Below the pieces are notes generated by a model that ran no database searches, was not told the origin of the DNA, and saw only the letters and a program-made list of their open reading frames with translations. Positions 9,256-58,418 of a stretch of 64,000 nucleotides of DNA are shown in pieces. Each line of letters begins with the position of its first letter. Positions within the stretch are counted from its first letter, which is position 1. The DNA comes from Spirochaetota bacterium (GTDB lineage: Bacteria; Spirochaetota; Spirochaetia; JABEVK01), in the NCBI GenBank assembly GCA_020049045.1, contig JAIFLN010000005.1, positions 10,417 to 74,416 of the forward strand, written 5' to 3'. The position numbers and the translations under genes are program-made.

Positions 9256-9327
<72 letters not shown>

Positions 9328-10182: not shown

Positions 10183-10278
10183 ATTCTCCCCCTTTTCATT
10201 TTCATCGTAACACGAACCTATCCAAAGTGGTTTGTGATTTCATTGTTACGGGTTACTTTAAGATTGAGGGGAACAAAG

Positions 10279-15491: not shown

Positions 15492-15565
15492 TTCGTTGCT
15501 CCTCCTTTTTCCCATCGGATGTTTTTCCATCGTCATCAAGAGAAAAAATAGGGTATCCTGAATCT

Positions 15566-38821: not shown

Positions 38822-39445
38822 TTACAAGCGTCCCAAGAGTTTTCCAGTTTGAGCATCCCATCGACATAAGCTTCCATCATACGAGCACGAAAGGAGATAC
38901 TGCCCGTCCCCAACCCAAGCAGCACCTGTCACTGCAGACTCGTGGGCTGACCAAGAACGGAGGATTGCTCCAGTAGACAGCGACCCGATGGTAATCTGTC
39001 CATCCGAGTTGCCAGAAGCCCAATAATCTTTTGCGGCAATCCTGACCTCAGAGGAAAGCGGCGATGCTGTCAACCAGCGCTTTCTCATATTTGTGAGACT
39101 CTCCCAGGAACCAGGAACAATGGAGGCAGTTTTGACGGTTTTTTGATCAAGATCAATCAGAATAAAGTGGCCACCAAGTGACACCGCTGCCAGCAGCTTT
39201 CCCTCAGAATCAAAAGCAACACCGACAATAGGACCAACATTCGTTAGCGACCAGGAGGCGAGAATTTCACCAGTGGCGACATCAAGCCACAGGATTTGCC
39301 CCTCCTTTCCCCCTGTTGCAAAAGTTCGGCCGTCTTGAGAAAGTTCGAGAGCCGTGAACCCTTGCCAAGGAAAGGCAAAAACAGGTCCTACCACAGAAAG
39401 CAGGACCAACAAAACAAACGTTTTCACACTTTGATACCAAGCCAT
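38822..39445 (-). CDS. WD40 / beta-propeller repeat protein with an N-terminal signal peptide
   Basis: Repeats ending ...LWLDVATGE, ...CRWDAQTGK and the like. An internal Met gives the signal peptide MAWYQSVKTFVLLVLL. Confidence 0.55.
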   Translation of the reverse strand: MAWYQSVKTFVLLVLLSVVGPVFAFPWQGFTALELSQDGRTFATGGKEGQILWLDVATGEILASWSLTNVGPIVGVAFDSEGKLLAAVSLGGHFILIDLDQKTVKTASIVPGSWESLTNMRKRWLTASPLSSEVRIAAKDYWASGNSDGQITIGSLSTGAILRSWSAHESAVTGAAWVGDGQYLLSCSYDGSLCRWDAQTGKLLGRL

Positions 39446-40077
39446 GCTAAAAGGGCAAAGAACAACGCCTGCAGGACGACATACCAGGAAAGGATAGGTC
39501 GGTTCGGTAACTGGAATTTCCCGGCCCACCAAGATGCAACAATAGCAATCAGGCCCCAAGCGAAATAATTCTGTAACGGTACCTGGCTGTCATGCCAGAC
39601 CCAGTATTCCAGGGAAATTGCCACCGGTTCCAGCAAGTAGTCAAAAGCGACGCAAGCTAGAGCAACCATGAGAATTTGAAGCAATCTGTTCCAATTTGGG
39701 AGTAACCTCAGGACGGCAGTATGGACACCAAGAACAACCAGCACCCAATTCATCCCGATTACGGGAGGAACACCAAGGAACAACATTCCCAGGGTGTCCG
39801 TGTAATGGTAGGGACCGAAAACCAGACCAGTGGCAACACCGAGAGCTTCCAACCCGAAAGTAAGCAACAAAATAGGAACAAAACAAGCCAGTAAGACCTT
39901 CCAATCTGTTTTCCAACCGTAGGTTGCAACAATCGCAGCCCCAGCACCAAGAAGAAACCAGGGTGTCAGAACAATCATCCAAGGAAGAAAAAATGGAATG
40001 GCATGCCCTGCAATTCCAACAATGTATAGGAAGGAAATAACAACAAAGATGATTATCGAATATCTTTTTTCATTCAT
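39424..40077 (-). CDS. Hypothetical integral membrane protein (6-7 TM)
   Basis: Highly hydrophobic 217-aa ORF. It has a 4-nt overlap with the upstream SET-domain gene. Confidence 0.5.
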   Translation of the reverse strand: MNEKRYSIIIFVVISFLYIVGIAGHAIPFFLPWMIVLTPWFLLGAGAAIVATYGWKTDWKVLLACFVPILLLTFGLEALGVATGLVFGPYHYTDTLGMLFLGVPPVIGMNWVLVVLGVHTAVLRLLPNWNRLLQILMVALACVAFDYLLEPVAISLEYWVWHDSQVPLQNYFAWGLIAIVASWWAGKFQLPNRPILSWYVVLQALFFALLAWLGIKV

Positions 40078-40670
40078 GGCAACACCCTCATTTCTCGGAA
40101 TCCCCCTTCCCAGTAAGCCTCCCCATAATCTACGGTTAGCTGTTCATCCACCCGTATATCCCGGATCGTCCTGAAAAAGGTGACAAAAAGATCGTCAACC
40201 AAAGTGTGATCAACTGCCAGGTTGGGTTTTGCCGAATGGTTGGCAAACCTCAGCTCATTTCCTTCCCGAAGTGCATTGATTTCCAATTCAGTGCCATCAG
40301 GTAATTCGTCAGGATAGTTCCAAGCATAGTCTGAAAGATAATGTCCATCCACTTTTTGTTCAGGGGATGCGTCTGACGCTTCTTGAATCACCCCGGAGTA
40401 CTCACCGACCAAATCCCCTAATTGTAAATCCACCCCGGCAAACAGCCCATACCCGAGACCAATACCCGCTTCTTTGATAAAAAGCGGGGGCCGGAAACCT
40501 CTCTGAAGTGACTCTCCATAACGATGGGTCAAAGACTCAAACTCATCTTGGTTCGCCTTATAATACGGACTTGAGGACCAGCGGTATGCCGAGATCCTCG
40601 GATCAGCAATTCGACACCTTGCCAGATAGACCAATCCCCTCAATGCAAAGAATTCTTGAATTGACTCCAT
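40074..40670 (-). CDS. SET-domain protein (putative protein-lysine methyltransferase)
   Basis: ELRFANHSAKPN matches the SET NHSCxPN motif. LTVDYGEAYW resembles the SET C-terminal ELxxDYG. Confidence 0.6.
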   Translation of the reverse strand: MESIQEFFALRGLVYLARCRIADPRISAYRWSSSPYYKANQDEFESLTHRYGESLQRGFRPPLFIKEAGIGLGYGLFAGVDLQLGDLVGEYSGVIQEASDASPEQKVDGHYLSDYAWNYPDELPDGTELEINALREGNELRFANHSAKPNLAVDHTLVDDLFVTFFRTIRDIRVDEQLTVDYGEAYWEGGFREMRVLP

Positions 40671-46167: not shown

Positions 46168-46241
46168 GGACGAATAGCTCAGTTGGTTAGAGCGGCTGCT
46201 TTACACGCAGCGGGTCGGGGGTTCGAATCCCTCTTCGTCCA
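46168..46241 (+). tRNA. tRNA-Val (anticodon TAC)
   Basis: Acceptor GGACGAA/TTCGTCC, D-arm AGCTCAGTTGGTTAGAGC, anticodon stem GCTGC/GCAGC with loop TTTACAC, and T-arm GGTTCGAATCC. Confidence 0.85.
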
Positions 46242-48334: not shown

Positions 48335-48370
48335 AAATAAAAAAAAGCCGGCTGGGGGAGCCGGCTTTTT
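48335..48370 (-). terminator. Rho-independent terminator downstream of flaA
   Basis: Palindromic AGCCGGCT-GGGGG-AGCCGGCT hairpin, followed on the minus strand by a U-rich run. Confidence 0.7.
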
Positions 48371-48387
48371 CAGTGTGTGAAGAAGTA

Positions 48388-49383
48388 TTACTGTGCAGCA
48401 GCGGCGGCAGGAGCAGGCTGATCAAAAGCAGCTTCTTTAGCCATCTTCTTAGTTTCCAGGGACCGAAGTACCTGAAGATTACCAAGTTTCGCCAACTCAA
48501 AGTTGCGTTCCGACTCTTCCCGAGCCTTAAGAATACCCCAAATCGCCTCATCATCGACATCGGCGTTTCTATCAACGACAGCCTGGTCATAGATGACCTT
48601 GATGTCTTTGATATAGGAAACGATGTCACCGCCATCCTGAGCTGCGTCCCGATGAATGACAATGCCCTTAAGCTTGATCATCGGAGCCGAGCGAGGATAG
48701 AGAGGAAGAACTTTGACGTCCCTGTTCCGAACTTCGGTCTGATAGTTCGGATTGTTCCATTGAAGAGCCTTCCAGCCATCGAAGTTCAGATATCCCATAA
48801 AGATTTCCTGTTCTTGGCCCAGTTCATTTTCCAGCAACAACGAAATGCTGTTGGAGAAGTTCCGTCCCAGAATATTGATCTGAATGGACTTGATCACGCC
48901 GACGTTCTTGAGAACGCCGAAGCCATCAAACTGCGAACCAGCCTTAGCGTTCTGATCGGTCGAACCTTCCAGCGTGGCATAAGCAGGGATAGTGAACGCA
49001 GGCTTGATTATCGCATACGAGTTCACACCGTAAGACGGGAAGTGAATCCGGACACCCATGACAGTCTCACCACCAAACTTGGCGGCATCCTGCTTGACGG
49101 GAGCAGCGGTAATCTGGGACAGGGTCTGGTTCTCCACGGACTGTGAAGAAGAAGCCAGTACAATTTCCCAGCTAGGAATAGCGAGGGAGATCTTCATCTT
49201 GGCCTTGTCTTCAGCACTGTAGGCTGATCCCGCCTGGCGGCTATAGTCGATGGTCGTCTGAGCGTGCAGGCCAGCATCTCCTTCGCCAATCAACTTTGAG
49301 AAATCAATGAGAGTCGCTTGTTCTGCGAAGGCACTGTTAGCCAGAAACAGGGCCACCCCCAGAATCGTGAAGAACCTTTTCAT
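48388..49383 (-). CDS. flaA: Flagellar filament outer-layer (sheath) protein FlaA
   Basis: Signal peptide MKRFFTILGVALFLANSAFA. It is about 331 aa, with the FlaA-family composition and C-terminus, a GGAG ribosome-binding site, and is the last gene of the operon. Confidence 0.75.
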   Translation of the reverse strand: MKRFFTILGVALFLANSAFAEQATLIDFSKLIGEGDAGLHAQTTIDYSRQAGSAYSAEDKAKMKISLAIPSWEIVLASSSQSVENQTLSQITAAPVKQDAAKFGGETVMGVRIHFPSYGVNSYAIIKPAFTIPAYATLEGSTDQNAKAGSQFDGFGVLKNVGVIKSIQINILGRNFSNSISLLLENELGQEQEIFMGYLNFDGWKALQWNNPNYQTEVRNRDVKVLPLYPRSAPMIKLKGIVIHRDAAQDGGDIVSYIKDIKVIYDQAVVDRNADVDDEAIWGILKAREESERNFELAKLGNLQVLRSLETKKMAKEAAFDQPAPAAAAAQ

Positions 49384-49431
49384 CCAGTGCTCCTTTTTAG
49401 CTTGGATTCTTTTTTTCATTATATGGATGCT

Positions 49432-49905
49432 TCATCCTTTGTCAACGAGATTCACCCCAGTAGGTTCCCCCCCCACCGAGATCATCACATTCGAAACACC
49501 TGAAAAGTTGTCCATCAGCGTCGCTTTCAGGACATCCAAGGCCATTACAGGCGAATATATAACATCGGGGTCAGGATTGAAAGCCCTTTTTGACAAATCG
49601 ATGAAAGCTGTTTGCCCACGAACGAGAACTGTTCTAACCTGGGCCTCACGGGAAAACAACCGCAAGTGCTGATGCTGCGCTGGTCCAAGCAAGATTTCCT
49701 TGGTCAGGAGTTCCATATCGTGTTCCACATTTCCATTGAACGGCAAAGAACGGGCCTCAGGTACCAACTGATGGCTGATTTCTGCTGGAAATTGAAGGAC
49801 TGTTCGGACAAGATTGCCTGGGAGAACGAAATACAGCAAAAGAGATAGCAGAAACACTAAAGCAAGTGCTGCCAAGGCCCCAAGAAGTGTCCGATCAGAA
49901 GTCAT
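49432..49905 (-). CDS. GerMN-domain membrane-anchored protein
   Basis: N-terminal transmembrane helix, then ILLGPAQ...VRTVLVRGQTAFIDLSKRAF matching the GerMN core (LL.GP...V....A.VDLS..F). A 4-nt overlap with the amidase gene. Confidence 0.5.
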   Translation of the reverse strand: MTSDRTLLGALAALALVFLLSLLLYFVLPGNLVRTVLQFPAEISHQLVPEARSLPFNGNVEHDMELLTKEILLGPAQHQHLRLFSREAQVRTVLVRGQTAFIDLSKRAFNPDPDVIYSPVMALDVLKATLMDNFSGVSNVMISVGGEPTGVNLVDKG

Positions 49906-52343
49906 GGAAGGTCCTCATAATTGTGGATAAATGATTCCAGCCCATTATAGAGACCCTGGGCTAATTTCTTCAAGTAATTCGGATCGTGCAGAGACTCAGC
50001 TTCTTCGGGATTCGTGATAAATCCCAGCTCTGCCAGAACAGCAGGCATTCGTGCCATCCTTACCACAAACCAAGGGTTTTCCTTCAATCCTCTCTGGACA
50101 CTGGAGTCACCCAGCTCTTTTGCCAGCCCTCGAGCCAAATGCTCAGCCAATTCTCGGCTTTCTTTCTTGTATTCAGAATCCACCAAAGTATTCAGTACCG
50201 GAAACACCGATTCCGGAATATCGATTCCAGGAATTACCTCCCTTTCAAAATTCTGGGGGACGTACCAAAGCTCCAAGCCCCGGGCTTTTCGGTTAAGACT
50301 GGCATTGAAATGGAGGGAGAGAAAAAAAATCGATTCTTGATCTCCTAATTTCTGAGCATGGGCAATCTGCACTCTTCTTTCCAGTGTTGGGTAGGTGTCA
50401 TTCTTTCTGGTCAGCACGATAGTTCGGTCGGGATACGCCTCCGTCAGCAATTTCTGTAGTTCCAAGGCAACCGTAAGTGTCAGATCTTTTTCCCGCAGGA
50501 CGACCTCTTTTCCATCAATGGTATGGCGGCCAATGCTGCCGGGATCTGTTCCTCCGTGACCAGCATCAAGAACAAGAACTTGGATTCTTGGCCCCTGACC
50601 GGTTCGTTCAACCGTAACCGGAACTGCAGGAATCTTGGTAGGAACCGGTTGATTATTCCACCAGCTCAGCAGAGTCTGGAAGTCGGTTGAATCCAGCTGG
50701 CCAGTAATGGGGTCAAGTTTTTGGAGGGAAAACTCATCCTTTCCATCTCCCAAAGCCAATCCCGTGACCAAGTCAATTGACAGCCGGTGTCTGGTATCAG
50801 AAAGCAAAACGATGTCCCGATAGGGTTCCCAGAATACCTTAGCCCCGGTCTGCAACACCAAATCCTGAAGATTCTCGGCAAGGACAGGCGAGGCGTACCG
50901 AGCTCCACAAAGCCCCCCAACAAGCAGAGACCGCCATACGCGCTCTGTAAACTCGGAAGGTTCCATCCCTTCTTTGCGAAGGACTACCAACAAATCCTCC
51001 AAGGTGTTTCCGTAGAGATCTTTCCAGGCTCCGGCCCGAGCCCGTTCAAGCAAGCCTGCCGATGTTTCCGAGAGTCCTCGGGCTTCGGGGAACCACCAGG
51101 GGTCGGCACCCGTCCCTTGCAGAAACAATTCGGTAGCGGGATTGGGGTACTCATATTCAAAAACCACTAGGTTTCGAACCAGGCGAGCGGTTTCCTCCAC
51201 TTCCTTTGCTTGGGTACCGGCGACAATGACATTCCCCAGTTTCTCAACATTGTTACGGGGAAATACCGTTTTTGTTCCAGGAGCAACGAGAAGAAACAGG
51301 TCTTTGACACCCGGCAAGTCGCGAGCCTGATCTACTCCATGGATTGCCTTGATTCTTCCGGGCAAACCGATCCAGGCCCGTTCCGCGACTGGCAGACTAA
51401 CCTCATCAGGCTGCTTCGATAGGGGAAGTCCCAGGGCTGTTTCAACAGCCCAGAGCACTGCAGAACGCCCTGATGTCAACGGATAAGTCCAGCCAGACAT
51501 ATAGCCGCCGGAAAGACGTGAGGCTATTTCACCAATAACAGGACCCCGTGAAGGTGAGAATTTCACGTCCCCTTTCGCGGCTCCCCAATTGAGCCCCAGG
51601 GCACGCACACCCCGTTCGAATTCGTTCCAGACAGCTTCTTGGACTACCACTGGGGCCGTCGAGGGAAAAGTATGGCCAATTTCAACAAAGGTCGGAGGAA
51701 AGACAATGGTTCTGTCGGCCAACCCGCACCGGATCAGCTGCCCGTCCCGAACAATGGCATCAACGCTAAACTCCGGACCATCGATGTACTCCTCGACGAT
51801 GGCACGACCCGTCAGGGAAAAACCAACCGCATCGGCAAGGGAAGCAGGCAAATCTTCACTGCGATGGACGAGCCGGACTCCCCGGGCACCCATGCTGTCC
51901 GTCGGCTTGACTACAACAGGAAAGGGAAAGTCCAGCTTGGGAATTGTTTGCGACAACCCTTCAAAGACTTGATGCCGGGGTGAGGAAATTCCCGCTTCAT
52001 CAAAGCGGTGCCGCATCAGGCCCTTGTCCCTGGCCAGAAGGGCCGCTTCATAGGGAGTCCCAGGCAGGCCAAGATGTTCAGCAATCCAGGCTACTGTCGT
52101 AGAAAAGTCCGTACCCACGGTCAGAACACCATCCAGGCGCTGAGCCTTCTGATGGGACCGGGCTCGTTCGAGGCAACGTTCAAGGTCTTTGATGTCACAG
52201 ACTTCAAACCAATCGGCTTGGTCACGAGCCGGGGCCATGGGGTTTCCGTCAAAACAGAGTACCTTAACCCCAAGCTGATGTGCAAACTTGAGAGCCGGCA
52301 GCTGCATGACGCCACCCCCAATCAACAGCAGATGCAGACTCAT
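49902..52343 (-). CDS. Fusion protein: N-terminal ATP-grasp ligase domain plus C-terminal N-acetylmuramoyl-L-alanine amidase (Amidase_3/AmiC-type)
   Basis: ATP-grasp hallmarks: VVVKPTDSMGARGVRLV and EEYIDGPEFSVDAIV. The C-terminal part (VLDAGHGGTDPGSIG..., NASLNRKARGLE) matches Amidase_3 zinc ligands. Confidence 0.65.
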   Translation of the reverse strand: MSLHLLLIGGGVMQLPALKFAHQLGVKVLCFDGNPMAPARDQADWFEVCDIKDLERCLERARSHQKAQRLDGVLTVGTDFSTTVAWIAEHLGLPGTPYEAALLARDKGLMRHRFDEAGISSPRHQVFEGLSQTIPKLDFPFPVVVKPTDSMGARGVRLVHRSEDLPASLADAVGFSLTGRAIVEEYIDGPEFSVDAIVRDGQLIRCGLADRTIVFPPTFVEIGHTFPSTAPVVVQEAVWNEFERGVRALGLNWGAAKGDVKFSPSRGPVIGEIASRLSGGYMSGWTYPLTSGRSAVLWAVETALGLPLSKQPDEVSLPVAERAWIGLPGRIKAIHGVDQARDLPGVKDLFLLVAPGTKTVFPRNNVEKLGNVIVAGTQAKEVEETARLVRNLVVFEYEYPNPATELFLQGTGADPWWFPEARGLSETSAGLLERARAGAWKDLYGNTLEDLLVVLRKEGMEPSEFTERVWRSLLVGGLCGARYASPVLAENLQDLVLQTGAKVFWEPYRDIVLLSDTRHRLSIDLVTGLALGDGKDEFSLQKLDPITGQLDSTDFQTLLSWWNNQPVPTKIPAVPVTVERTGQGPRIQVLVLDAGHGGTDPGSIGRHTIDGKEVVLREKDLTLTVALELQKLLTEAYPDRTIVLTRKNDTYPTLERRVQIAHAQKLGDQESIFFLSLHFNASLNRKARGLELWYVPQNFEREVIPGIDIPESVFPVLNTLVDSEYKKESRELAEHLARGLAKELGDSSVQRGLKENPWFVVRMARMPAVLAELGFITNPEEAESLHDPNYLKKLAQGLYNGLESFIHNYEDLP

Positions 52344-54136
52344 GGCAGCTCCTTTGTTTTTCGGGCATAAACCTCAAACGTGTCACCCCAGCCCAACCAG
52401 CGGTCCAGCAGCGTAACAATTGATAGTACAGGATCTGAGGGTCCTTTCAGTCCGGGGAACCGCTCCGGATGATGCCCTGTAACCCGAAATGCCAACACTT
52501 CAAAACCAAAACGTCTCAGAATCGGTTTCGTATTGGCCGGATTCCATATGGAAAAGTGATCATCCGGGCTTTCTTCCCAGAATTTCTCGGGTTGAAACGT
52601 TCTGGTGATTCCCTTTCCATTGGGCGTGGAAAAGGCAAACAGACCTCCGAGAGGGAGCAGTTTATTGACCTGGCTGAGCACGGCTGACAGATCGGGAAAA
52701 TGTTCAATGACATACCAAAGCGAAACAAGATCGGGGCGGGTTACCCCTGGAAAAGACTCTTCCCATCGGAACTCCAAAAAAGAGGCCTTGACCGCTGGAA
52801 ATCCAAGTGAGTCCCGAACATAGGCTACCGCAGCTTCTGCGACATCGAGGCCGAAAGGATGATGCCCCGAGGCCGCAGCCGCTGCCAGGAACGGACCGTA
52901 GGCACAGCCGACATCCAGAATATTCCTGCCGACACTCGTACCAGCCGTACGATCAAGAAACTCCAACCGCTGCTGCCCTAAAGCCTGAATGTGAGCAAAG
53001 TCTTGTAGGTAGGTCTTTCCATACTGCTTTTGATAATCTTCAAAGAAATACGCTTCTGAGTATTCTTTGGGAGGTAGTTGGTGGGCCGAGAGATACTCCA
53101 TTCCACAAACGGCACAACGATGGTAACTCTTATGATGGCTTCGGAAGAAAACAGCATTGCCGCCAGTTCGGCATACTGGGCAACGGCTGTCGGTACCACG
53201 AAAGGTTGAAAAATACTCTCCTGCATTGAGAGGCTCTTGCAGCAACTTCGTAAAAGCTTCGCGCGCGGCACCCTGGGCATCTTCCAAACCGGAAAGAAAC
53301 GCATCGGCTCGGGGTCTGCGTACACCAAAAGTGGGAAGTCTAGCGGCGCGTGAAAGCTGTTCATGATAATTGGTGGGATTCAAAAGCAGGACGGGAGTTC
53401 CGGCAGCCAAGCTTTCCAAAGCGGTCAATCCCCACGAGGTAACCGTCAGATCCCATTGACCAAGGAGTTTGGGAAGCTCGGGCGGAGCTTCCAGCACTTC
53501 GGTATCCAGCGGAACGATAAATCGCGAAAGCGGCCCGCGGACGACAGTCAAAGAATACGGGAACCTCCCCTGTGTGCGAAGGGTCTGAACCATGGCTAGG
53601 AACTTCAACGTCAACCCGGCAGGATCAGAACCACCGAAAACAGCCAGCATGGTTCGGATTGGTCTATCGTAACGGTGCGGTTTGGGAGGAAAAGACAGAC
53701 CGAGGAGGCCTGGAAGACGCACATTGGGTTCAGGCTTTGTATCGTGTGGAAGCGAGTCTACCAGAAACGCAAACCGCCTCCGGGCAGGTCCCCCGTCATC
53801 CCACCCTATCAAATGCAAGGTCCGACGGGAAAGAAGGGAAAAAGCCGATAACGGTGCAGCCTGCATGTCGAGAACTGCTTTGGGAGCAATATAGGATTCC
53901 GGCCATTTCATCCAGAGTTGAACACCGGCAGAATCCGCCAGGCTCTGAACAATGGACCGCTCAAATACCGGGTGCTTTCCGACAAAGGCAGAGTCGGCTG
54001 CAAAATAGACCACCGCCTGGGGTCCAACCGAGGCCGCAGCCGCCAAACAGCGGCGCAAATGCCCCATGCCTCTATCGATTCTGAGGCTGGGAATAAAAAC
54101 CAACTCTGGTGTCAGCGCGGATGTCGGTTCAACCAT
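52340..54136 (-). CDS. Fusion protein: PseG-like nucleotide-sugar hydrolase (GT28/MurG-like fold) plus zinc-ribbon class I SAM-dependent methyltransferase
   Basis: N-terminus RIDRGMGHLRRCLAAAAS and later FGGSDPAGL match the PseG motifs IGxGHxxRxLxLA and GGTD. The C-terminal part has CPVC...CAVCG and the methyltransferase motif I ILDVGCAYGPF. Confidence 0.6.
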   Translation of the reverse strand: MVEPTSALTPELVFIPSLRIDRGMGHLRRCLAAAASVGPQAVVYFAADSAFVGKHPVFERSIVQSLADSAGVQLWMKWPESYIAPKAVLDMQAAPLSAFSLLSRRTLHLIGWDDGGPARRRFAFLVDSLPHDTKPEPNVRLPGLLGLSFPPKPHRYDRPIRTMLAVFGGSDPAGLTLKFLAMVQTLRTQGRFPYSLTVVRGPLSRFIVPLDTEVLEAPPELPKLLGQWDLTVTSWGLTALESLAAGTPVLLLNPTNYHEQLSRAARLPTFGVRRPRADAFLSGLEDAQGAAREAFTKLLQEPLNAGEYFSTFRGTDSRCPVCRTGGNAVFFRSHHKSYHRCAVCGMEYLSAHQLPPKEYSEAYFFEDYQKQYGKTYLQDFAHIQALGQQRLEFLDRTAGTSVGRNILDVGCAYGPFLAAAAASGHHPFGLDVAEAAVAYVRDSLGFPAVKASFLEFRWEESFPGVTRPDLVSLWYVIEHFPDLSAVLSQVNKLLPLGGLFAFSTPNGKGITRTFQPEKFWEESPDDHFSIWNPANTKPILRRFGFEVLAFRVTGHHPERFPGLKGPSDPVLSIVTLLDRWLGWGDTFEVYARKTKELP

Positions 54137-54783
54137 GGGATCAGGTCCTCCACTTCGAGGGGCTTGCCCCGGTAAAGATCGGTCCAAAGGGACCGCAGAT
54201 ACTGAAGATCATCCGGTGTATCAAGGGTCACCCTGGCTGCAGGTGCCCGCAACGCTTCTGCAACTGCCGGGTGGTTGATATGAAAACGCTCCGGTCGGCG
54301 GTACAGAAAGGGGCTTGCGTGTTCCTGCTCATACTCGTCGGGGTCCGATGACCAAGCCTCTTCGAGAGCACTTACCTTCAGAACTTCGACACCAGTCCCA
54401 ATGGGGGAACCCACAAAGCCGCTGTAATCTGCGCCGCTGGCAAGATGCAGCTCCAGGAGCTCGTTGGCTAGTCGGGCTGAAACCAAGGGATTGTCACCGG
54501 TGGCACGAACAACGGTGCTGGTTCCTATCGAACGGGAAGCTTGGACAAAGCGGTCCAGAACATTTTGTTTGTTGCCGATGTAAATTTCCCAGCCTGCTGA
54601 GCGGGCAAGGGGTTCAAGTTCGCCGGCACTCTCAGGTTCCGTGACCAACACTCGCCGGTCAACACGCACGGCGGCAAGAGCTTCAATGCAGCGTTGCGTA
54701 ACAGAAGTTCCACCCAAGTCGGCCAAGGCCTTGCGTGGGAGACGTGTCGAGTCCAGACGAACCTGCAAAAACACAGCGGTCAC
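54112..54783 (-). CDS. Cytidylyltransferase, SpsF/PseF/KdsB-like (CMP-sugar synthetase family)
   Basis: N-terminal FLQVRLDSTRLPRKAL matches the IIxARxxSTRLPGKxL motif. 223 aa, typical for PseF/SpsF. GTG start. Confidence 0.6.
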   Translation of the reverse strand: MTAVFLQVRLDSTRLPRKALADLGGTSVTQRCIEALAAVRVDRRVLVTEPESAGELEPLARSAGWEIYIGNKQNVLDRFVQASRSIGTSTVVRATGDNPLVSARLANELLELHLASGADYSGFVGSPIGTGVEVLKVSALEEAWSSDPDEYEQEHASPFLYRRPERFHINHPAVAEALRAPAARVTLDTPDDLQYLRSLWTDLYRGKPLEVEDLIPWLNRHPR

Positions 54784-55733
54784 AAGTTCCCCCAGAGCTC
54801 AGACAACAGTCTGGCATCAGTCTGAAACCGGTAACGGTGAGTTTTTACCCACGCACGCTCATTCAGAAATTCGGCCAGACTATCGCTAAAGGAACGGCCG
54901 CTGCGCCTCGCATGAGCCCAAAACCGGATCATTGGAAGCACTCCATGATCTCCTAGATGTCGTACCGCCAAATTCCGAAGATAAAACCGGGAATAGGAAC
55001 GGTCAGGGGTTTGATCTTCGGAGGGAACTTCCGAGCGGTAGTCCACTTTGAACCCTCGGTCCACTACCAGTCTTTCACCCCAAAGGTGGCTTCTGACTCC
55101 CCAGTCCACTTTTTGCCAGAAAGGATTGCCGAGCGCTTGGTCATACCCGCCCGTTGCCAAAAATTTTCCGCGGTTGTAGAGACCGGTATAGTCGGATGCA
55201 AAAAGAGTATCCACGTTTTCCTGGTCGGTACCCAAGGTAAGGATCTTGAGACGATCCTTCTCAAGAGTAGGGACTTGAACGCAGGGAAGTTCATATCCCT
55301 CCCTATCGCGCATTTCGGGAACCATGACCAAGAAAGAAAAGTCCTGCCACAGACGTTGGACCTTCGAATGCAGTCCTGTTTCTGACAGGGATTGATCGTC
55401 CCACAAAACCAAAAACCGGTCTCCTCGAATTTCCCTTGCCGCCAAATTGATCCTCACTCCCGGTGTCGCGGGCTCTGATAGAACCAGAAAACGCAGACCA
55501 GGGAGGTCGCCTAGCAGTTTCTCGGCATCAAAACGGGGACTTTCCTGTTCGATACAAAGAATTTCTGGAAAACCGAGGGAATGAAATTCCGTTAGTACCG
55601 AAGGCCGGAAAAGCGCCGGCCCACGCCCCAGAACAACCAATGAAACCCGAAGTTCAAAGCGGCTGGTCGTGCCTTCGGGTGCTCTGCTGCCCAGGATGGA
55701 GTAGGATTCAGAAATGAAAGGTGTACCACTCAT
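54780..55733 (-). CDS. Hypothetical protein (about 317 aa), possibly a glycosyltransferase-like orphan in the flaA operon
   Basis: Long ORF overlapping both neighbours. The internal Met at 55733 leaves a 26-nt overlap with the upstream gene. Only a weak DxD-like WDDQS. No confident family. Confidence 0.35.
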   Translation of the reverse strand: MSGTPFISESYSILGSRAPEGTTSRFELRVSLVVLGRGPALFRPSVLTEFHSLGFPEILCIEQESPRFDAEKLLGDLPGLRFLVLSEPATPGVRINLAAREIRGDRFLVLWDDQSLSETGLHSKVQRLWQDFSFLVMVPEMRDREGYELPCVQVPTLEKDRLKILTLGTDQENVDTLFASDYTGLYNRGKFLATGGYDQALGNPFWQKVDWGVRSHLWGERLVVDRGFKVDYRSEVPSEDQTPDRSYSRFYLRNLAVRHLGDHGVLPMIRFWAHARRSGRSFSDSLAEFLNERAWVKTHRYRFQTDARLLSELWGNL

Positions 55734-57150
55734 CGCAATTCCTGCAGACCTCGGGCCAGTCTTCCTTGACATGCCGCTCAAACAGCCTATCTCCCCGATC
55801 CCAAACAGCCGAAAGTTCCTCTGTCCAGGCATTGCCCAGGGGCTGAGTCCGATGAAAGTCGTCCCGACAAACGACCACCGTTCCATCAAGAAAGACCGCC
55901 AAGTCACGGGCGAGGTGCCAGCAGGCATGCCGTTTCCAAGGAGAAAGATCCGACGGTTTGGCGCGGTCAAGTCTTCCTCCAAAATCGTTATGCTTCTGAA
56001 TGATGACTCTGCCGGCTTCCTCTTTCCAATGCCGGTGAAAAGCCTCCATCTCGTTTTCATTCTCACCCATTCGCACTGTCTGAGGCCAAACCCTGGAAGG
56101 AAATAGCGCAATCAGCCGGCGGGTAAAAGCCTGAGCTTCTTCCAGACCGTTACCACGAAGTTTCTGATAGGTTTCCGCAACATCAGAATCGAGCTCAACA
56201 ATCCAGTCGAGGTTGGTTGGATGCCTCGCGGCCAAAGAATCGAGATCTACCTTTCCCCAGCCCAAACCAGAGGTTTCCAGGCACAAATGCAGGCCAGGCT
56301 TTGCCAAAGCGTCAGTCATCAATTCCAGAATTTCAGGATGAAGAGAAGGTTCTCCCCAAAAGGACGGCATGACAGTCAGATCTCCAGCCCAAGCCAGAGC
56401 CTGGTCCAGAAGATTGTTCCACCGTTGACGGGAAAGCGTGTTTCTCCGGGTCAGAGCATCAGGGTTTATTTGTTTCAGAGGTGACCAGATTGGTATCTGG
56501 CGCACCCCATCCGTGATTTGAACAAGAAGTGTGGCGGGCAAGGTCCGAGACCGATCGGCGGTAACATCGAGAACATCCAAAAAACCCTTGGTATCGAGGC
56601 TGACCTCCCCAAGGTAGCGGTCAAGAAGAATTCGGTTGCGGCGGGAATCGGCTGTCAGACTGAGCCGACGGGAACGCAGATCCACTGGGCTGAGCTGGGT
56701 TTCGATATCAAACCTGTTGATATCGACAGAGAGAAGCTGAAACAGCGACTCACGGGTGACTGGCCCACCTTTATCGGCTGCCCATCCTGCCAAAAGAGGG
56801 AGGATGGACGGACGGAGAATTTCGGCGGTCAAACCTATTGGATAGCCATCTGCAAAAGTATAGTCAGCCCGGTATTCACGATGAAGTGCCCGCATTTGAT
56901 GGAGAACATCAATGCGCAAGAAAGGGCTGTCATCAACAGCAAGCACCAGTTCATCAAACCCCTCGGAGATCGACTGCAAAGCCGATACAAGGTCAAGGCA
57001 GCTGAGAAACGGCCCCAAAGATTTCCGAGGCACACCAGGAGCGGCCTGATCGAGAGCGTCAGACACCCAATCAGCCACACTGCGGTTGCCCAGAGGACGG
57101 TCGGGGTCAACGACCGGTTGAAACGACAACAAGACACAGAGAGTGTTCAT
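55708..57150 (-). CDS. Spiro-SPASM-like protein: N-terminal cytidylyltransferase-like domain, a radical-SAM-like core lacking CxxxCxxC, and a C-terminal SPASM-like Cys cluster
   Basis: Central FWGEPSLHPE resembles the radical-SAM GGEPLLHP motif, but no CxxxCxxC is present. The C-terminus (ACWHLARD...VVVCRDDF...EVCRNCDEW) is SPASM-like. The N-terminal 150 aa are nucleotidyltransferase-like. Confidence 0.5.
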   Translation of the reverse strand: MNTLCVLLSFQPVVDPDRPLGNRSVADWVSDALDQAAPGVPRKSLGPFLSCLDLVSALQSISEGFDELVLAVDDSPFLRIDVLHQMRALHREYRADYTFADGYPIGLTAEILRPSILPLLAGWAADKGGPVTRESLFQLLSVDINRFDIETQLSPVDLRSRRLSLTADSRRNRILLDRYLGEVSLDTKGFLDVLDVTADRSRTLPATLLVQITDGVRQIPIWSPLKQINPDALTRRNTLSRQRWNNLLDQALAWAGDLTVMPSFWGEPSLHPEILELMTDALAKPGLHLCLETSGLGWGKVDLDSLAARHPTNLDWIVELDSDVAETYQKLRGNGLEEAQAFTRRLIALFPSRVWPQTVRMGENENEMEAFHRHWKEEAGRVIIQKHNDFGGRLDRAKPSDLSPWKRHACWHLARDLAVFLDGTVVVCRDDFHRTQPLGNAWTEELSAVWDRGDRLFERHVKEDWPEVCRNCDEWYTFHF

Positions 57151-57203
57151 TTTGATTCATCATCCCGAGATTTCTTGTCTTTGGCAAGGAAAAAAGCTAG
57201 GAT

Positions 57204-58418
57204 GTGGCCATGTTGGCCCCCCGTGGTGTCTTGACGGTTTCAGAGCTCACCAGTGTCGTAAAAGAAATTCTCGAGGGGGGATTCTCCTCGGTGACTGTCG
57301 AGGGAGAGATTACAGGACTGAGGTCTACCTCTGGTAAGCATCTCTACTTTTCGCTCAAAGATGAGACCTGTCTTTTGAAGGCGGTTTGGTTTTCCTGGGC
57401 CAGCCGCAGTGACAAACCACCCGCTGAGGGGCAGCAAGTCAGAATCACCGGCCGTCTTACTGTATATGAGGCTCAGGGTGTGTACCAATTGGTTGTCACC
57501 TCTCTGGAAGCCGTCGGTCTGGGAGACCTCCTGGCACGTTTGGAGCGCTTGAAAAAGAGTCTCGAAGCGGAAGGACTGTTTGACCCTTCGCGAAAGAGAG
57601 CCCTGCCTCCCTACCCCAGCGTCATCGGTTTGGTTACCAGTCCTACAGGTGCCGCTGTTCAAGATATGCTGCGCATCTTCCAAACCACGGGTCTTCCTGC
57701 CGTGATCAGAGTCTTTCCCGTGGCAGTCCAAGGCACCGAAGCCCCTGGTCAGATTGCTGCTATGGTGCGCTATGCCGGTACACGGCAACTAGCCGATGTT
57801 TTGGTTGTAGGCAGAGGCGGGGGCTCGGTGGAGGACCTTTTGGCCTTCAGCGATGAACGGGTTGTCCGTGCTATTGCAGAGTGTACCTTGCCTGTAATTT
57901 CTGCCGTAGGACATGAAATCGACTCCCCGTTGTGCGACTTCGCGGCTGACTGGCGTGCACCGACCCCCACGGCTGCGGCCGAACTGCTGTCACGCTCCTG
58001 GATGGCAGTGGATCAGAACCTGGCTCAGCTCCGGAGTGACCTTGAAGCAGGGATTCAAGGTCGTCTTGACCGGGCCCGTCTCACTCTTGCCGATTATCGC
58101 TCCGACCGGCTTCGGGAATCGTTTCAGCGGGTTCTCCAGCCCTATTACCAGCGTTTTGATTTTGCCAAAGACTCGCTGAAACAAGCATGGACAGACAGAG
58201 TGACAGATTTGAAGCGGCGGGTAGAGCTCAGCCGTTCGACACTGGAAGCCTTGAACCCCTATGCGGTATTGGAACGGGGATACGCCCTCGTCACTGACAC
58301 AGAGGGAAAGGCCGTTCAGGCAGCTTCTGGCCTGATCAAGGGTCAAGCACTTAACCTACGCTTTCATGACGGCCGGACGCGTGTCCAGGTCGAGGAGGTC
58401 CTGGATGAAGAACTTTGA
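57204..58418 (+). CDS. xseA: Exodeoxyribonuclease VII large subunit
   Basis: N-terminal OB-fold LTVSELTSVVKEILEGGFSSVTVEGEITGLRSTSGKHLYFSLKD. Confidence 0.85.
   Translation: MAMLAPRGVLTVSELTSVVKEILEGGFSSVTVEGEITGLRSTSGKHLYFSLKDETCLLKAVWFSWASRSDKPPAEGQQVRITGRLTVYEAQGVYQLVVTSLEAVGLGDLLARLERLKKSLEAEGLFDPSRKRALPPYPSVIGLVTSPTGAAVQDMLRIFQTTGLPAVIRVFPVAVQGTEAPGQIAAMVRYAGTRQLADVLVVGRGGGSVEDLLAFSDERVVRAIAECTLPVISAVGHEIDSPLCDFAADWRAPTPTAAAELLSRSWMAVDQNLAQLRSDLEAGIQGRLDRARLTLADYRSDRLRESFQRVLQPYYQRFDFAKDSLKQAWTDRVTDLKRRVELSRSTLEALNPYAVLERGYALVTDTEGKAVQAASGLIKGQALNLRFHDGRTRVQVEEVLDEEL

What the first reader, a model, noticed from the sequence alone, without database searches (positions are those of the whole stretch)
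48388..57150. flaA is the terminal gene of an 8.8-kb overlapping operon of sugar-nucleotide and cell-wall enzymes, a candidate undescribed flagellar-filament or cell-wall modification system
Seven consecutive minus-strand genes run from the xseA-divergent promoter region near 57150 down to the flaA terminator near 48350. In order they are the spiro-SPASM-like protein, an orphan protein, a cytidylyltransferase, the PseG-MTase fusion, the ATP-grasp-amidase fusion, the GerMN protein and flaA. They are joined by 4-nt or 26-nt overlaps or short gaps, and no internal terminators were seen. PseG and PseF are established pseudaminic-acid pathway families, and treponemal flagellar proteins are reported to be glycosylated, so a sheath or filament glycan-modification module is plausible. 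The combination with an amidase/GerMN pair and a degenerate radical-SAM protein does not match any described locus I know. The other Pse genes (PseB, C, H, I) are absent from the window, so the pathway is either split or non-canonical.
Basis: partly seen in the sequence, partly recalled or inferred. Interest (0 to 1): 0.85.

Follow-up and report, generated by a model that had tools for sequence, protein, structure and literature searches.

The report
Conserved spirochaete sugar-enzyme cluster ending in flaA
The flagellar sheath gene flaA sits at the end of a gene cluster (sugar-tailoring enzymes plus a cell-wall amidase) that keeps the same order across free-living and host-associated spirochaetes, but flaA also has its own perfectly conserved strong promoter, and what the enzymes make is still unknown.

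Summary
The gene row is real and strongly conserved, but three points of the description need correcting.

1. **The ATP-grasp–amidase "fusion" is a lesion of this assembly.** It comes from a 56-nt deletion. A 99.7 % identical contig and almost all relatives have two genes, and the amidase there has a signal peptide.
2. **flaA has its own promoter.** A perfect TTGACA-N16-TATAAT lies 34 nt before the true start (second ATG, 49383). The motif is perfect in 31 of 50 related loci and at least 10/12 in 42. No upstream terminator precedes it, and a strong terminator follows flaA.
3. **The "orphan" is a GT-A glycosyltransferase.** The radical-SAM cysteines of spiro-SPASM are lost only in this clade; 71 of 81 loci keep them.

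The order xseA | spiroSPASM–GT-A–cytidylyltransferase–PseG-like/methyltransferase–ATP-grasp–amidase–GerMN–flaA holds in 50 of 53 sufficiently long Spirochaetales loci, including named Treponema strains. In T. denticola, co-transcription of flaA with its four upstream ORFs is already published, without any function assigned.

Best reading: five cytoplasmic enzymes tailor a nucleotide-activated sugar, plausibly the acylated, O-methylated nonulosonic glycan of FlaB. They are translationally coupled, followed by a periplasmic amidase/GerMN pair, and read through into flaA. The function is inferred, not shown.

The parts
57151..57203 (.). 53-nt spacer between divergent xseA (57204-58418, +) and the first cluster gene; it must hold the upstream cluster promoter
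   Evidence: xseA, TIGR00237, 418.8 bits. Only a weak 9/12 promoter-like site, at 57187-57159 (-), was found. xseA is divergent in most related loci.
55708..57150 (-). spiro-SPASM protein (480 aa): an N-terminal cytidylyltransferase-fold domain, a radical-SAM barrel that has lost its CxxxCxxC motif here, and a SPASM domain
   Evidence: - TIGR04321 scores 441.7 bits against a cut-off of 250.
- AF2 model pLDDT 92.2.
- GVRQIPIWSP replaces the GCPQACSYCP of relatives.
- C410, C428, C469 and C472 are invariant.
54780..55733 (-). The "orphan" (317 aa): a GT-A-fold glycosyltransferase-like protein. Its ATG lies inside the GAT-GAA codons of the invariant C-D-E motif of spiro-SPASM, giving a 26-nt overlap
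   Evidence: - The window protein has no Pfam or NCBIfam hit.
- 9 of 39 orthologues weakly hit Glycos_transf_2.
- AF2 model pLDDT 84.6, pTM 0.86.
- Foldseek top hits are ppGalNAc-transferases at 1e-12.
- W111 is invariant; D112 and D113 are conserved in at least 90 % of sequences.
- The overlap is -26 in 76 of 79 loci.
- The Asp codon is GAT in 80 of 80 loci.
54112..54783 (-). Stand-alone cytidylyltransferase (223 aa, GTG start, 4-nt overlap with the previous gene)
   Evidence: - PF02348 CTP_transf_3 scores 84 bits.
- No equivalog-level match: KdsB models reach 29-41 bits against cut-offs of 155-255.
- The best solved relative is 6oew, at 2e-17 over the full length.
- In T. maltophilum this gene is fused to the next one.
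52340..54136 (-). Three-part protein (598 aa from ATG 54136): a PseG-like GT-B domain, a 4-Cys zinc ribbon and a class I SAM methyltransferase
   Evidence: - Methyltransf_23 at 1.2e-19.
- TIGR03590 PseG is hit by 36 of 38 orthologous N-domains (best 6e-13), all far below the 153.55-bit cut-off.
- G23-x-G25-H26-x-x-R29 and C319, C322, C341, C344 are invariant.
- PDB matches: UbiG 5e-14; sugar 3-C-methyltransferases KijD1 and TcaB9 1e-11 to 1e-10.
50893..52343 (-). ATP-grasp ligase of the L-amino-acid-ligase type. Ancestrally a separate 488-aa gene; here it has lost its last codons and its stop
   Evidence: - LAL_C2 62 bits, ATP-grasp_4 and ATPgrasp_N.
- PDB matches: 4dim 3e-20, L-amino-acid ligase BL00235 1e-16, BacD, PylC.
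- Stand-alone in 118 of the best 120 homologues.
50892..50893 (-). Junction of a 56-nt deletion that fuses the ATP-grasp and amidase frames and removes the amidase start codon and signal peptide
   Evidence: blastn of L001 against the window gives two blocks at 99.7 % and 99.9 % identity, separated by 56 extra nt in L001 (11452-11507).
49902..50892 (-). N-acetylmuramoyl-L-alanine amidase (Amidase_3) portion. Ancestrally a separate 344-aa exported protein
   Evidence: - PF01520 scores 148.9 bits.
- L001 calls a 344-aa gene starting MKRFLTVFLLGLMASSPVLA.
- 41 of 52 orthologues have a hydrophobic N-terminus.
49432..49905 (-). GerMN-domain protein (157 aa) with an N-terminal membrane anchor
   Evidence: - PF10646 Germane scores 30.8 bits against a cut-off of 23.
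- 37 of 37 orthologues have a hydrophobic N-terminus.
- The association of GERMN with Amidase_3 and with peptidoglycan is described in PMC2732212.
49418..49445 (-). flaA's own sigma-70 promoter, TTGACA-N16-TATAAT (12/12). The -35 box lies in the last GerMN codons and the -10 box overlaps the first, spurious ATG
   Evidence: -.
- Perfect in 31 of 50 related loci and at least 10/12 in 42 of 50, lying 32-57 nt before the ATG.
- None of 394 control regions upstream of the other cluster genes reaches 11/12, except 2 upstream of GerMN.
- The A-rich upstream stretch and the hexamers are conserved while the spacer and UTR vary.
49390..49395 (-). Shine-Dalgarno AAGGAG, 6 nt before the flaA ATG
   Evidence: AAAGGAG is conserved before the flaA ATG in almost all related loci.
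48388..49383 (-). flaA, the flagellar filament outer-layer (sheath) protein: 331 aa from the second ATG, with signal peptide MKRFFTILGVALFLANSAFA
   Evidence: - PF04620 at 2.1e-87.
- The gene caller on L001 gives 331 aa.
- All orthologues start MK(R/K)... at the equivalent ATG.
48341..48371 (-). Intrinsic terminator ending the unit (13-bp stem, 6 G-C pairs, T-run); tex starts about 20 nt further on
   Evidence: A hairpin plus T-run lies within 120 nt after flaA in 45 of 50 related loci; no strong one lies between GerMN and flaA.

Best explanation
This is one copy of an ancestral eight-gene locus of Spirochaetales. It has three layers.

**Layer 1: five cytoplasmic enzymes.** They are spiro-SPASM (cytidylyltransferase-fold domain, radical-SAM barrel, SPASM domain), a GT-A glycosyltransferase, a stand-alone cytidylyltransferase, a PseG-like/zinc-ribbon/SAM-methyltransferase protein, and an L-amino-acid-ligase-type ATP-grasp. 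Their genes overlap and are translationally coupled. Together they tailor, and possibly transfer, a nucleotide-activated sugar.

**Layer 2: a peptidoglycan pair.** A Sec-exported Amidase_3 and a membrane-anchored GerMN partner.

**Layer 3: flaA.**

**Transcription (from sequence).** A modest promoter in the xseA spacer drives the whole row. No terminator precedes flaA, so this transcript reads into flaA. A consensus sigma-70 promoter with an A-rich upstream element and a strong Shine-Dalgarno sequence, placed just before flaA, supplies the bulk of the sheath-protein mRNA. One strong terminator ends both transcripts.

**Function (inferred).** The most likely product is the acyl- and O-methyl-decorated nonulosonic-acid glycan that is O-linked to the FlaB core flagellins, which the FlaA sheath contacts. 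In this scheme the PseG-like and cytidylyltransferase domains handle and activate the sugar. The methyltransferase makes the methoxy group. The ATP-grasp forms the amide to the hydroxy-acid chain. The radical-SAM enzyme performs an oxidation or rearrangement that has become dispensable in this clade.

**In this particular assembly.** A 56-nt deletion has fused the ATP-grasp to an amidase that now lacks its signal peptide, so the amidase is probably inactive or the sequence is faulty.

**Confidence.** The figure given (0.4) is for the whole statement including the inferred flagellin-glycan function. The architectural and transcription-signal parts alone I would put near 0.9.
For: **Shown by sequence**
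- Gene order and strand are conserved in 50 of 53 loci with enough sequence. These loci share only 35-50 % amino-acid identity and come from Spirochaetaceae, Treponemataceae, Rectinemataceae, Marispirochaeta, Oceanispirochaeta and Sediminispirochaeta. The same order is found in Treponema sp. J25 and T. maltophilum.
- Median junctions are -26, -4, -7, -4, -4 and +4 nt. The GerMN-flaA spacer is never shorter than 48 nt (median 105).
- The Asp codon that creates the overlapping ATG is GAT in 80 of 80 loci. Elsewhere in these genes GAT and GAC are near parity (1271: 1316).
- The flaA promoter is perfect in 31 of 50 loci and at least 10/12 in 42 of 50. Controls upstream of the other genes essentially never reach 11/12.
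- A terminator follows flaA in 45 of 50 loci, and no strong one precedes it.
- The first five proteins lack hydrophobic N-termini; the last three have them.

**Enzyme assignments**
-.
- The nearest structural relatives of the spiro-SPASM radical-SAM part include enzymes acting on sugars or nucleoside sugars (BlsE, BtrN, DesII). Its N-domain has a cytidylyltransferase fold.
- In T. maltophilum the cytidylyltransferase, PseG-like domain and methyltransferase form one 870-aa protein, which argues that they act in one pathway.

**Literature**
- T. denticola flaA is co-transcribed with its four upstream ORFs from a sigma-70 promoter (PMC9481697).
[quoted passage not shown] This structure needs exactly a methyl transfer and an amide-forming ligation on a Pse-type sugar.
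Against: - No experiment links any of these enzymes to flagellin. The link rests on neighbourhood and on chemistry that merely fits.
- The core Pse gene known in T. denticola (PseI, TDE0960) is elsewhere, and no PseB/C/H/I gene is in this window.
- The PseG-like domain and the cytidylyltransferase score far below the equivalog cut-offs.
- A DxD-type GT-A fold normally uses NDP-sugars, not CMP-nonulosonates, so the GT-A protein is not an obvious flagellin nonulosonate transferase.
- The ATP-grasp gene is most tightly coupled to the amidase gene (-4 nt), which would also fit a peptidoglycan-peptide role.
- Linkage to flaA is broken in L068 and L074, and PseG-MT plus ATP-grasp are missing in L047.
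- Whether this uncultured lineage glycosylates FlaB is unknown.
- Promoter use and read-through are predicted, not measured.
Confidence: 0.4

Rival explanations
1. Cell-wall reading. The cassette modifies or recycles peptidoglycan. The ATP-grasp ligates an amino acid or peptide onto a muropeptide or precursor, for example the side-chain residue on ornithine. The amidase and GerMN trim or recognise the product. The sugar enzymes decorate the glycan strand or a wall-linked polymer. flaA is attached only because the periplasmic flagellum lies against the wall.
For: - The ATP-grasp and amidase genes overlap by 4 nt in most loci.
- The ATP-grasp is of the amino-acid-ligase / D-Ala-D-Ala-ligase type.
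- Amidase_3 and GerMN are peptidoglycan-associated families.
- The amidase-GerMN-flaA trio persists when PseG-MT and ATP-grasp are absent (L047).
Against: - The cluster has no flippase, Mur-type ligase, undecaprenyl-linked transferase or membrane protein other than the GerMN anchor.
- PseG-like, cytidylyltransferase and methyltransferase domains are typical of nonulosonate or deoxysugar tailoring, not of known wall chemistry.
- In L047 the amidase pair stays while the ATP-grasp is lost, so the two are separable.
Confidence: 0.22
2. Neighbours without a shared function. The five enzymes make some other glycoconjugate (a glycolipid, capsule-like polymer or small molecule). The amidase/GerMN pair is the housekeeping cell-separation amidase. 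flaA is an independent gene that has simply stayed at the end of a stable housekeeping row.
For: - flaA has its own conserved consensus promoter and Shine-Dalgarno sequence, and it is the only gene separated by a real spacer.
- Linkage is lost in L068 and L074.
- Neighbours outside the cluster (xseA, tex, relA-like) are housekeeping genes.
- The Kurniyati 2022 paper itself calls flaA an 'orphan flagellar gene' in its cluster.
Against: - The order is kept in 50 of 53 loci at 35-50 % protein identity, while the flanks outside xseA and flaA change.
- No terminator has evolved between GerMN and flaA in any clade.
- Co-transcription is shown in T. denticola.
Confidence: 0.25
3. A single seven-gene operon with one promoter, whose product modifies the FlaA sheath protein, and in which the ATP-grasp-amidase fusion and the degenerate radical-SAM protein are designed features.
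For: Overlapping genes and one terminal terminator. FlaA glycosylation has been reported for some spirochaetes; a review that cites the T. denticola study says so (PMC9862357).
Against: - The fusion is a 56-nt deletion absent from a 99.7 % identical contig and from 118 of the best 120 homologues.
- An internal consensus promoter is conserved.
- The radical-SAM cysteines are intact in 71 of 81 loci.
- FlaA carries a cleavable signal peptide, whereas the enzymes are cytoplasmic.
Confidence: 0.04

Closest known systems
Treponema denticola flaA gene cluster TDE1716-TDE1706 (Kurniyati et al. 2022, Mol Microbiol 118:175; PMC9481697)
   Same: - flaA follows non-flagellar ORFs on one strand.
- Co-RT-PCR shows flaA co-transcribed with its four upstream ORFs.
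- A sigma-70 promoter lies in the spacer to a divergently transcribed gene.
- Primer P4 in TDE1714 encodes ELGFIS, the amidase motif seen here (LAELGFITNPEE).
   Different: - Only four ORFs lie upstream there, so the spiro-SPASM, GT-A and cytidylyltransferase genes appear to be missing from that row.
- That cluster continues past flaA, whereas here a terminator follows flaA.
- No internal flaA promoter was looked for in that study.
- No function was proposed for the upstream ORFs.
- I could not read the T. denticola sequence itself, so the orthology of TDE1713-1716 is inferred from primers only.
Pseudaminic-acid pathway and flagellin glycosylation islands of Campylobacter and Helicobacter (PseB, C, H, G, I, F and Maf); my knowledge of the pathway
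   Same: - A PseG-like domain with the GxGHxxR motif.
- A CMP-sugar-synthetase-family cytidylyltransferase.
- Genomic association with a flagellar filament gene.
- A Pse-type glycan is proven on FlaB in T. denticola.
   Different: - No PseB/C/H/I or Maf in the window.
- The PseG and PseF/KdsB models score far below their cut-offs.
- Extra enzymes are present that are not part of the canonical pathway: radical-SAM/SPASM, GT-A, methyltransferase, ATP-grasp.
- The linked filament gene is the sheath protein, not the glycosylated flagellin.
Radical-SAM enzymes acting on sugars or nucleoside sugars (BtrN, BlsE, DesII) and SPASM/twitch enzymes (SuiB, anSME, PqqE)
   Different: - It has a unique N-terminal cytidylyltransferase-fold domain.
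- No peptide-substrate gene is nearby.
- In this window the SAM-cluster cysteines are gone, so the protein cannot be a radical-SAM catalyst here.
Bacillus subtilis sps (spore-coat polysaccharide) genes SpsA, SpsF, SpsG; my knowledge
   Different: No NeuB-like synthase, aminotransferase or acetyltransferase here. The organism and the target structure differ. The resemblance was recalled from memory and tested only through the family models.
Amidase_3-GERMN association (Rigden & Galperin 2008; PMC2732212)
   Same: GERMN is encoded in all sequenced spirochaetes, is fused to Amidase_3 in Halothermothrix, and is proposed to bind peptidoglycan or another carbohydrate. Here the two are adjacent genes overlapping by 4 nt.
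   Different: That paper did not describe the link to flaA or to the upstream enzymes. The role of GerMN as an amidase partner remains untested.

Membership tests
FlaA, spirochaete flagellar filament outer-layer protein (PF04620) | Match to the family model above its cut-off, and a cleavable N-terminal signal peptide | tested here: met
   293.1 bits against a cut-off of 25. MKRFFTILGVALFLANSAFA follows the second ATG.
spiro-SPASM protein (NCBIfam TIGR04321) | Whole-protein score above the curated cut-off, with the C-terminal SPASM cysteines | tested here: met
   441.7 bits against 250. C410, C428, C469 and C472 are invariant in 28 sequences.
Radical-SAM enzyme (PF04055 type) | CxxxCxxC motif that binds the SAM-cleaving 4Fe-4S cluster | tested here: not met
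   The window protein has GVRQIPIWSP where 71 of 81 related loci have C-x3-C-x2-C. The fold is retained.
PseG, UDP-2,4-diacetamido-2,4,6-trideoxy-beta-L-altropyranose hydrolase (TIGR03590) | Score above the equivalog cut-off of 153.55 bits | tested here: not met
   24.9-27.9 bits for the window protein. 36 of 38 orthologues hit the model, but the best is only 6e-13.
PseG, UDP-2,4-diacetamido-2,4,6-trideoxy-beta-L-altropyranose hydrolase (TIGR03590) | N-terminal G-x-G-H-x-x-R motif carrying the catalytic His (motif recalled from the literature) | tested here: met
   G23, G25, H26 and R29 are invariant in 38 orthologues.
PseF / CMP-nonulosonate synthetase | Membership of CTP_transf_3 plus an equivalog-level match to a CMP-Pse, CMP-Neu5Ac or CMP-Kdo synthetase model | tested here: inconclusive
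   PF02348 scores 84 bits (met). The best NCBIfam models, KdsB-type, reach 29-41 bits against cut-offs of 155-255 (not met). The closest solved relative is an uncharacterised Leptospira cytidylyltransferase, 6oew.
Canonical pseudaminic-acid biosynthesis locus | PseB, PseC, PseH and PseI (NeuB-type synthase) encoded with PseG and PseF | tested here: not met
   No such family appears among 49 window ORFs scanned against Pfam. The rest of the genome could not be searched.
GT-A glycosyltransferase (GT2/GT27-like), for the "orphan" | GT-A Rossmann-like fold with an acidic DxD-type motif after the fourth strand | tested here: met
   - Model pLDDT 84.6.
- W111-D112-D113 follows strand 106-111.
- Pfam GT2 is only a weak hit, in 9 of 39 orthologues.
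- Activity was not tested.
L-amino-acid-ligase-type ATP-grasp | ATP-grasp core plus the LAL C-terminal domain 2 | tested here: met
   LAL_C2 62.1 bits against 29.4; ATP-grasp_4 39.7 against 27; ATPgrasp_N 32.1 against 27. PDB relatives are BL00235, BacD, RizA and PylC.
Periplasmic N-acetylmuramoyl-L-alanine amidase (Amidase_3) | A catalytic-domain match and an export signal | tested here: inconclusive
   The domain scores 148.9 bits. The export signal is absent in the window because of the 56-nt deletion, but present in L001 and in 41 of 52 orthologues.
Single-promoter operon | One promoter, no internal promoter or terminator, genes co-transcribed | tested here: not met
   There is no internal terminator. 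A conserved 12/12 sigma-70 promoter lies before the last gene. Co-transcription itself cannot be tested with these tools; it is shown only for T. denticola.

The most novel reading that the evidence does not exclude
The five-enzyme spiro-SPASM cassette is the missing tailoring and transfer pathway for the spirochaete-specific flagellin glycan.

- The PseG-like and cytidylyltransferase domains handle the Pse-type sugar.
- The methyltransferase and the ATP-grasp build and attach the 2-methoxy-trihydroxy-hexanoyl side chain.
- The radical-SAM enzyme reshapes the sugar or the acid.
- The GT-A protein is a new kind of flagellin O-glycosyltransferase.

The read-through into flaA then couples production of the core glycan to production of the sheath protein that docks on it.
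Probability: 0.2. Interest if true: 0.8.

Novelty: new variant of a known kind. Interest (0 to 1): 0.58.

Why it matters
Spirochaete motility depends on a sheathed periplasmic filament. Its FlaB core must be glycosylated for assembly, and the enzymes that make the unusual acylated, methylated nonulosonate are only partly known.

This work provides a compact, order-wide candidate gene set. The set includes the uncharacterised spiro-SPASM family and a previously unannotated GT-A family of roughly 170-700 sequence clusters; every named member I looked up is a spirochaete. It is physically and transcriptionally tied to flaA, so it makes a concrete knockout target in T. denticola or T. maltophilum.

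Even if the flagellar link fails, three results stand:
- A deeply conserved consensus promoter with a nested-operon layout, useful for expression tools in spirochaetes.
- A conserved overlapping start codon held in place by codon choice.
- Repeated loss of the radical-SAM cluster site in a protein that is nevertheless retained.

Tried and rejected
- **Bifunctional ATP-grasp-amidase enzyme.** Rejected. The 56-nt deletion removes the stop codon, the start codon and the signal peptide. The one other fused homologue, P0037, keeps a membrane segment between the domains.
- **First ATG (49419) as the flaA start.** Rejected. It lies inside the -10 box, and all orthologues start at the second ATG.
- **TTG 54187 as the start of the PseG-MT gene.** Rejected in favour of ATG 54136, which the gene call on L001 and the orthologue alignment support.
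- **Literature searches.** 'spiro-SPASM' and 'BB0666 amidase' found nothing. Kurniyati 2017 is not held, so the gene content of the T. denticola Pse locus is known to me only through a review.
- **Context in model species.** This could not be obtained for T. denticola, T. pallidum, Borrelia, Leptospira or Brachyspira:
  - The single genome scan returned only the best 80 of at least 567 hits, all from Spirochaetales.
  - Exact look-ups of P0001, P0082 and the window's own spiro-SPASM protein failed.
  - The afdb50 library was unavailable.
- **Second promoter-like site (TTGAAG-N18-TATAAT, 49973-49944) before GerMN.** It reaches at least 10/12 in 16 of 37 loci. It lies in codons for a conserved amidase motif (GLYNG), so I do not count it as a promoter.
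- **Rfam.** No RNA element was found in the region.
- **Profile search of the orphan against PDB sequences.** No significant hit (two matches, E 0.37 and 2.1). Only the predicted fold gave the GT-A assignment.

Full report

Yes, with corrections. Searches show seven consecutive minus-strand ORFs between 48388 and 57150. xseA is divergent at 57204 and tex lies downstream.

- FlaA (PF04620, 2e-87).
- Germane (5e-7).
- ATP-grasp/LAL_C2 plus Amidase_3.
- Methyltransf_23 with a weak PseG match (TIGR03590, 1.4e-5; 24.9 bits against a cut-off of 153.55).
- CTP_transf_3 (84 bits).
- A protein with no match.
- spiro-SPASM (TIGR04321; 441.7 bits against 250).

The junctions are overlaps of 26, 4, 25, 4 and 4 nt. 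The internal terminator-like hits on the gene strand are short 5-6-bp stems, and over both strands the region holds 17 such sites against 13.2 +/- 3.5 in shuffles. The hairpin after flaA (48371-48341) has a 13-bp stem and a T-run.

Pfam scans of 49 ORFs covering the rest of the window found housekeeping genes, one flagellin gene and no PseB/C/H/I-type gene.

**2. The ATP-grasp–amidase fusion is a lesion of this assembly.**

Among the best 120 homologues of the 813-aa ORF, all but two are stand-alone ATP-grasp proteins of about 470-610 aa. A metagenomic contig, L001, is 99.7 % identical over 16 kb. It has the same gene order, but with a 488-aa ATP-grasp gene and a 344-aa Amidase_3 gene overlapping by 4 nt.

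The only structural difference is 56 extra nucleotides in L001 at window position 50893/50892. They contain the ATP-grasp stop codon, the amidase ATG and its signal peptide MKRFLTVFLLGLMASSPVLA.

The window version therefore encodes an amidase without an export signal, tethered to a cytoplasmic enzyme. It is either a loss-of-function allele or an assembly fault. The one other fused homologue, P0037, keeps a membrane segment between the two domains.

**3. flaA has its own, deeply conserved promoter.**

One search found a 12/12 match, TTGACA-N16-TATAAT, at 49445-49418. My estimate of the chance of such a match in about 9.8 kb on both strands is roughly 3 x 19,600 x 4^-12, or about 0.004.

Its -10 box overlaps the first ATG of the ORF. 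The second ATG (49383) is preceded by AAGGAG and followed by a typical signal peptide. The gene caller on L001 also gives 331 aa.

In the 50 related loci that contain flaA:
- The same motif is perfect in 31 and at least 10/12 in 42.
- It always has a 16-nt spacer and lies 32-57 nt before the ATG.
- It is preceded by an A-rich stretch and followed by AAAGGAG.
- The spacer and the untranslated leader vary freely.

Among 394 control regions taken 200 nt upstream of the other cluster genes, only 2 (both before GerMN) reach 11/12.

The GerMN-flaA junction is also the only one that always has a spacer: minimum 48 nt, median 105, and never 10 nt or less in 37 loci. All other junctions have medians between -26 and +4. 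A hairpin with a T-run follows flaA in 45 of 50 loci, and no strong one precedes it.

So flaA is indeed the terminal gene and can be reached by read-through. It is also an independent, strongly promoted unit.

**4. Conservation of the cluster.**

A scan of one genome per species found at least 567 spiro-SPASM loci. The 80 best are all Spirochaetales, from these groups: Spirochaetaceae, Treponemataceae, Rectinemataceae, Marispirochaeta, Oceanispirochaeta, Sediminispirochaeta and a gutless-worm symbiont.

tblastn with the window proteins shows the same order and strand in essentially every locus: xseA (divergent) | spiro-SPASM–GT-A–cytidylyltransferase–PseG-like/MT–ATP-grasp–amidase–GerMN–flaA.
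- Of 53 loci with at least 9.5 kb downstream, 50 have flaA.
- 48 of those have all the other genes.

Exceptions:
- L047 lacks PseG-MT and ATP-grasp.
- L068 and L074 end after PseG-MT.
- L027 has a 5.6-kb insertion.

Two named Treponema strains carry the cluster:
- Treponema sp. J25 has the same row.
- T. maltophilum ATCC 51939 also has it. There the cytidylyltransferase, PseG-like domain and methyltransferase are a single 870-aa protein, which argues that these activities act in one pathway.

One small but telling detail concerns the overlapping start codon. The ATG of the GT-A gene lies in the GAT-GAA codons of the invariant C-D-E motif at the spiro-SPASM C-terminus. The overlap is 26 nt in 76 of 79 loci. 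The Asp codon is GAT in 80 of 80 loci, although GAT and GAC are used equally elsewhere in these genes (1271: 1316). This is selection on an overlapping start codon, that is, translational coupling.

**5. What the proteins are.**

*spiro-SPASM.*
- It continues into a radical-SAM/SPASM body: SuiB 20.8, BlsE 18.4, SkfB 17.9, MoaA 17.4, BtrN 17.1, DesII 11.8.
- The family profile finds BtrN at 7e-13.
- CxxxCxxC is intact in 71 of 81 loci. It is lost in the window's clade (L001-L006, L061) and separately in L070, L072 and L074, and also in T. maltophilum.

*The "orphan".*
- It is a GT-A glycosyltransferase by fold. The model has pLDDT 84.6.
- The Foldseek top hits are polypeptide GalNAc-transferases at about 1e-12.
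- It has a conserved W-D-D motif.
- A full profile search of 1.84 billion representatives finds only 174 clusters at 1e-30 and 707 at 1e-3. Every named member I looked up is a spirochaete.

*The PseG-like domain* keeps an invariant GxGHxxR. It hits TIGR03590 in 36 of 38 orthologues, but far below the cut-off.

*The methyltransferase* resembles UbiG and the sugar C- and O-methyltransferases.

*The ATP-grasp* resembles L-amino-acid ligases.

*Topology.* The first five proteins lack hydrophobic N-termini; the amidase, GerMN and FlaA have them.

**6. What is already known.**

Kurniyati et al. 2022 reported the following for T. denticola:
- flaA (TDE1712) is an 'orphan flagellar gene' in an 11-ORF cluster.
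- It is co-transcribed with its four upstream ORFs.
- The start site lies 14 bp before TDE1716, behind a sigma-70 promoter.
- No function was proposed, and no start site was sought inside the cluster.
- A primer in TDE1714 encodes the amidase motif seen here.

[quoted passage not shown] It is essential for assembly and faces the sheath. The known PseI gene (TDE0960) lies elsewhere in that genome.

GERMN is encoded in all sequenced spirochaetes and was linked to Amidase_3 and to peptidoglycan by Rigden and Galperin. TP0248, next to flaA1 in T. pallidum, is an abundant 15-kDa lipoprotein.

I found no paper that mentions spiro-SPASM.

**7. Most likely mechanism, and rivals.**

*Shown by sequence:*
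- A three-layer locus: five coupled cytoplasmic enzymes, two exported wall proteins, and flaA.
- Two promoters and one terminator.

*Inferred:* the enzymes tailor a nucleotide-activated sugar. My preferred target is the FlaB glycan, for four reasons:
- Its chemistry needs a Pse-type sugar handler, a methyl transfer and an amide-forming ligation.
- The sheath protein that docks on that glycan is the gene kept at the end of the row.
- No terminator has ever been inserted before flaA.
- Co-transcription is proven in one species.

I put this at about 0.4.

*Against it:*
- The canonical Pse genes are absent here.
- The family scores are sub-threshold.
- The GT-A protein is of the DxD type, which does not suit CMP donors.
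- The ATP-grasp is tightly coupled to the amidase.
- Linkage is occasionally lost.

*Rivals:*
- A peptidoglycan-directed pathway (0.22).
- Functionally unrelated but stable neighbours (0.25).

**8. Novelty and verdict.**

The individual families, the T. denticola flaA co-transcript and the amidase-GerMN association are known. The following are not described in anything I could search:
- The order-wide eight-gene unit.
- Its nested consensus promoter.
- The codon-locked overlapping start.
- The GT-A identity of the orphan.
- The cytidylyltransferase-fold domain of spiro-SPASM.
- The repeated loss of its SAM-cluster site.

I rate it a new variant of a known kind (a glycan-tailoring cluster tied to a flagellar gene). 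It is of moderate to good interest and directly testable by knockouts in cultivable treponemes.

**9. Limits.**
- No transcript data exist for this organism.
- Model pathogens could not be inspected.
- Only the best 80 of at least 567 loci were seen.
- The functional assignment rests on fold, family and neighbourhood.

Noticed in passing
window 50892-50893 (compare L001:11452-11507): A 56-nt deletion relative to a 99.7 % identical metagenomic contig. It has no flanking microhomology and happens to restore the reading frame between two genes that overlapped by 4 nt. Whether it is a population variant, a real loss-of-function allele or an assembly error is open.
   Followed up: partly
window 55708-55733, and the equivalent site in L001-L083: The start codon of the GT-A gene sits in the GAT-GAA codons of the invariant C-D-E motif of spiro-SPASM. 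The Asp codon is GAT in 80 of 80 loci although GAC is equally common elsewhere. This is a clear case of codon choice constrained by an overlapping start.
   Followed up: yes
L070, L072, L074, L083, and the window clade (L001-L006, L061): The CxxxCxxC motif of spiro-SPASM has been lost in the window's clade and in loci outside it (apparently several independent losses), while the protein stays well conserved. T. maltophilum has also lost one SPASM cysteine (CGKSDEYYTFNF). This suggests a second, non-radical role for the protein.
   Followed up: partly
window 49944-49973 (-): A second promoter-like site, TTGAAG-N18-TATAAT (10/12), lies before GerMN inside the amidase 3' end. Similar sites score at least 10/12 in 16 of 37 loci. 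It coincides with codons of a conserved amidase motif (GLYNG), so it may be a by-product of protein conservation.
   Followed up: partly
window 14628-15539 (-): A flagellin (FlaB-type; Flagellin_N and Flagellin_C) gene lies 33 kb from flaA. I did not check whether it keeps the Ser/Thr glycosylation sites known from T. denticola FlaB.
   Followed up: no
window 10234-14613 (+): A 1459-aa protein with many FlgD_ig and Big_13 Ig-like repeats and a C-terminal OmpA domain lies directly next to the flagellin gene, which is on the opposite strand.
   Followed up: no
window 38822-40670 (-): Three adjacent small genes with a WD40 repeat protein, a Caroten_synth-family protein and a SET-domain protein. 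This is an unusual trio for a bacterium.
   Followed up: no
L083:10981-13593 (Treponema maltophilum ATCC 51939): A natural fusion of the cytidylyltransferase, PseG-like and methyltransferase modules into one 870-aa protein. In this genome the cluster is not next to xseA.
   Followed up: partly
L082:14552-15787 and L083:18043-19353: In both named Treponema genomes the gene after flaA is a RelA_SpoT-domain protein with TPR repeats, not tex as in the window.
   Followed up: no
window 46168-46241 (+) and 9256-9327 (+): Two tRNA genes, which are the only Rfam matches in the window. One lies between leuD and the 3' end of tex.
   Followed up: no
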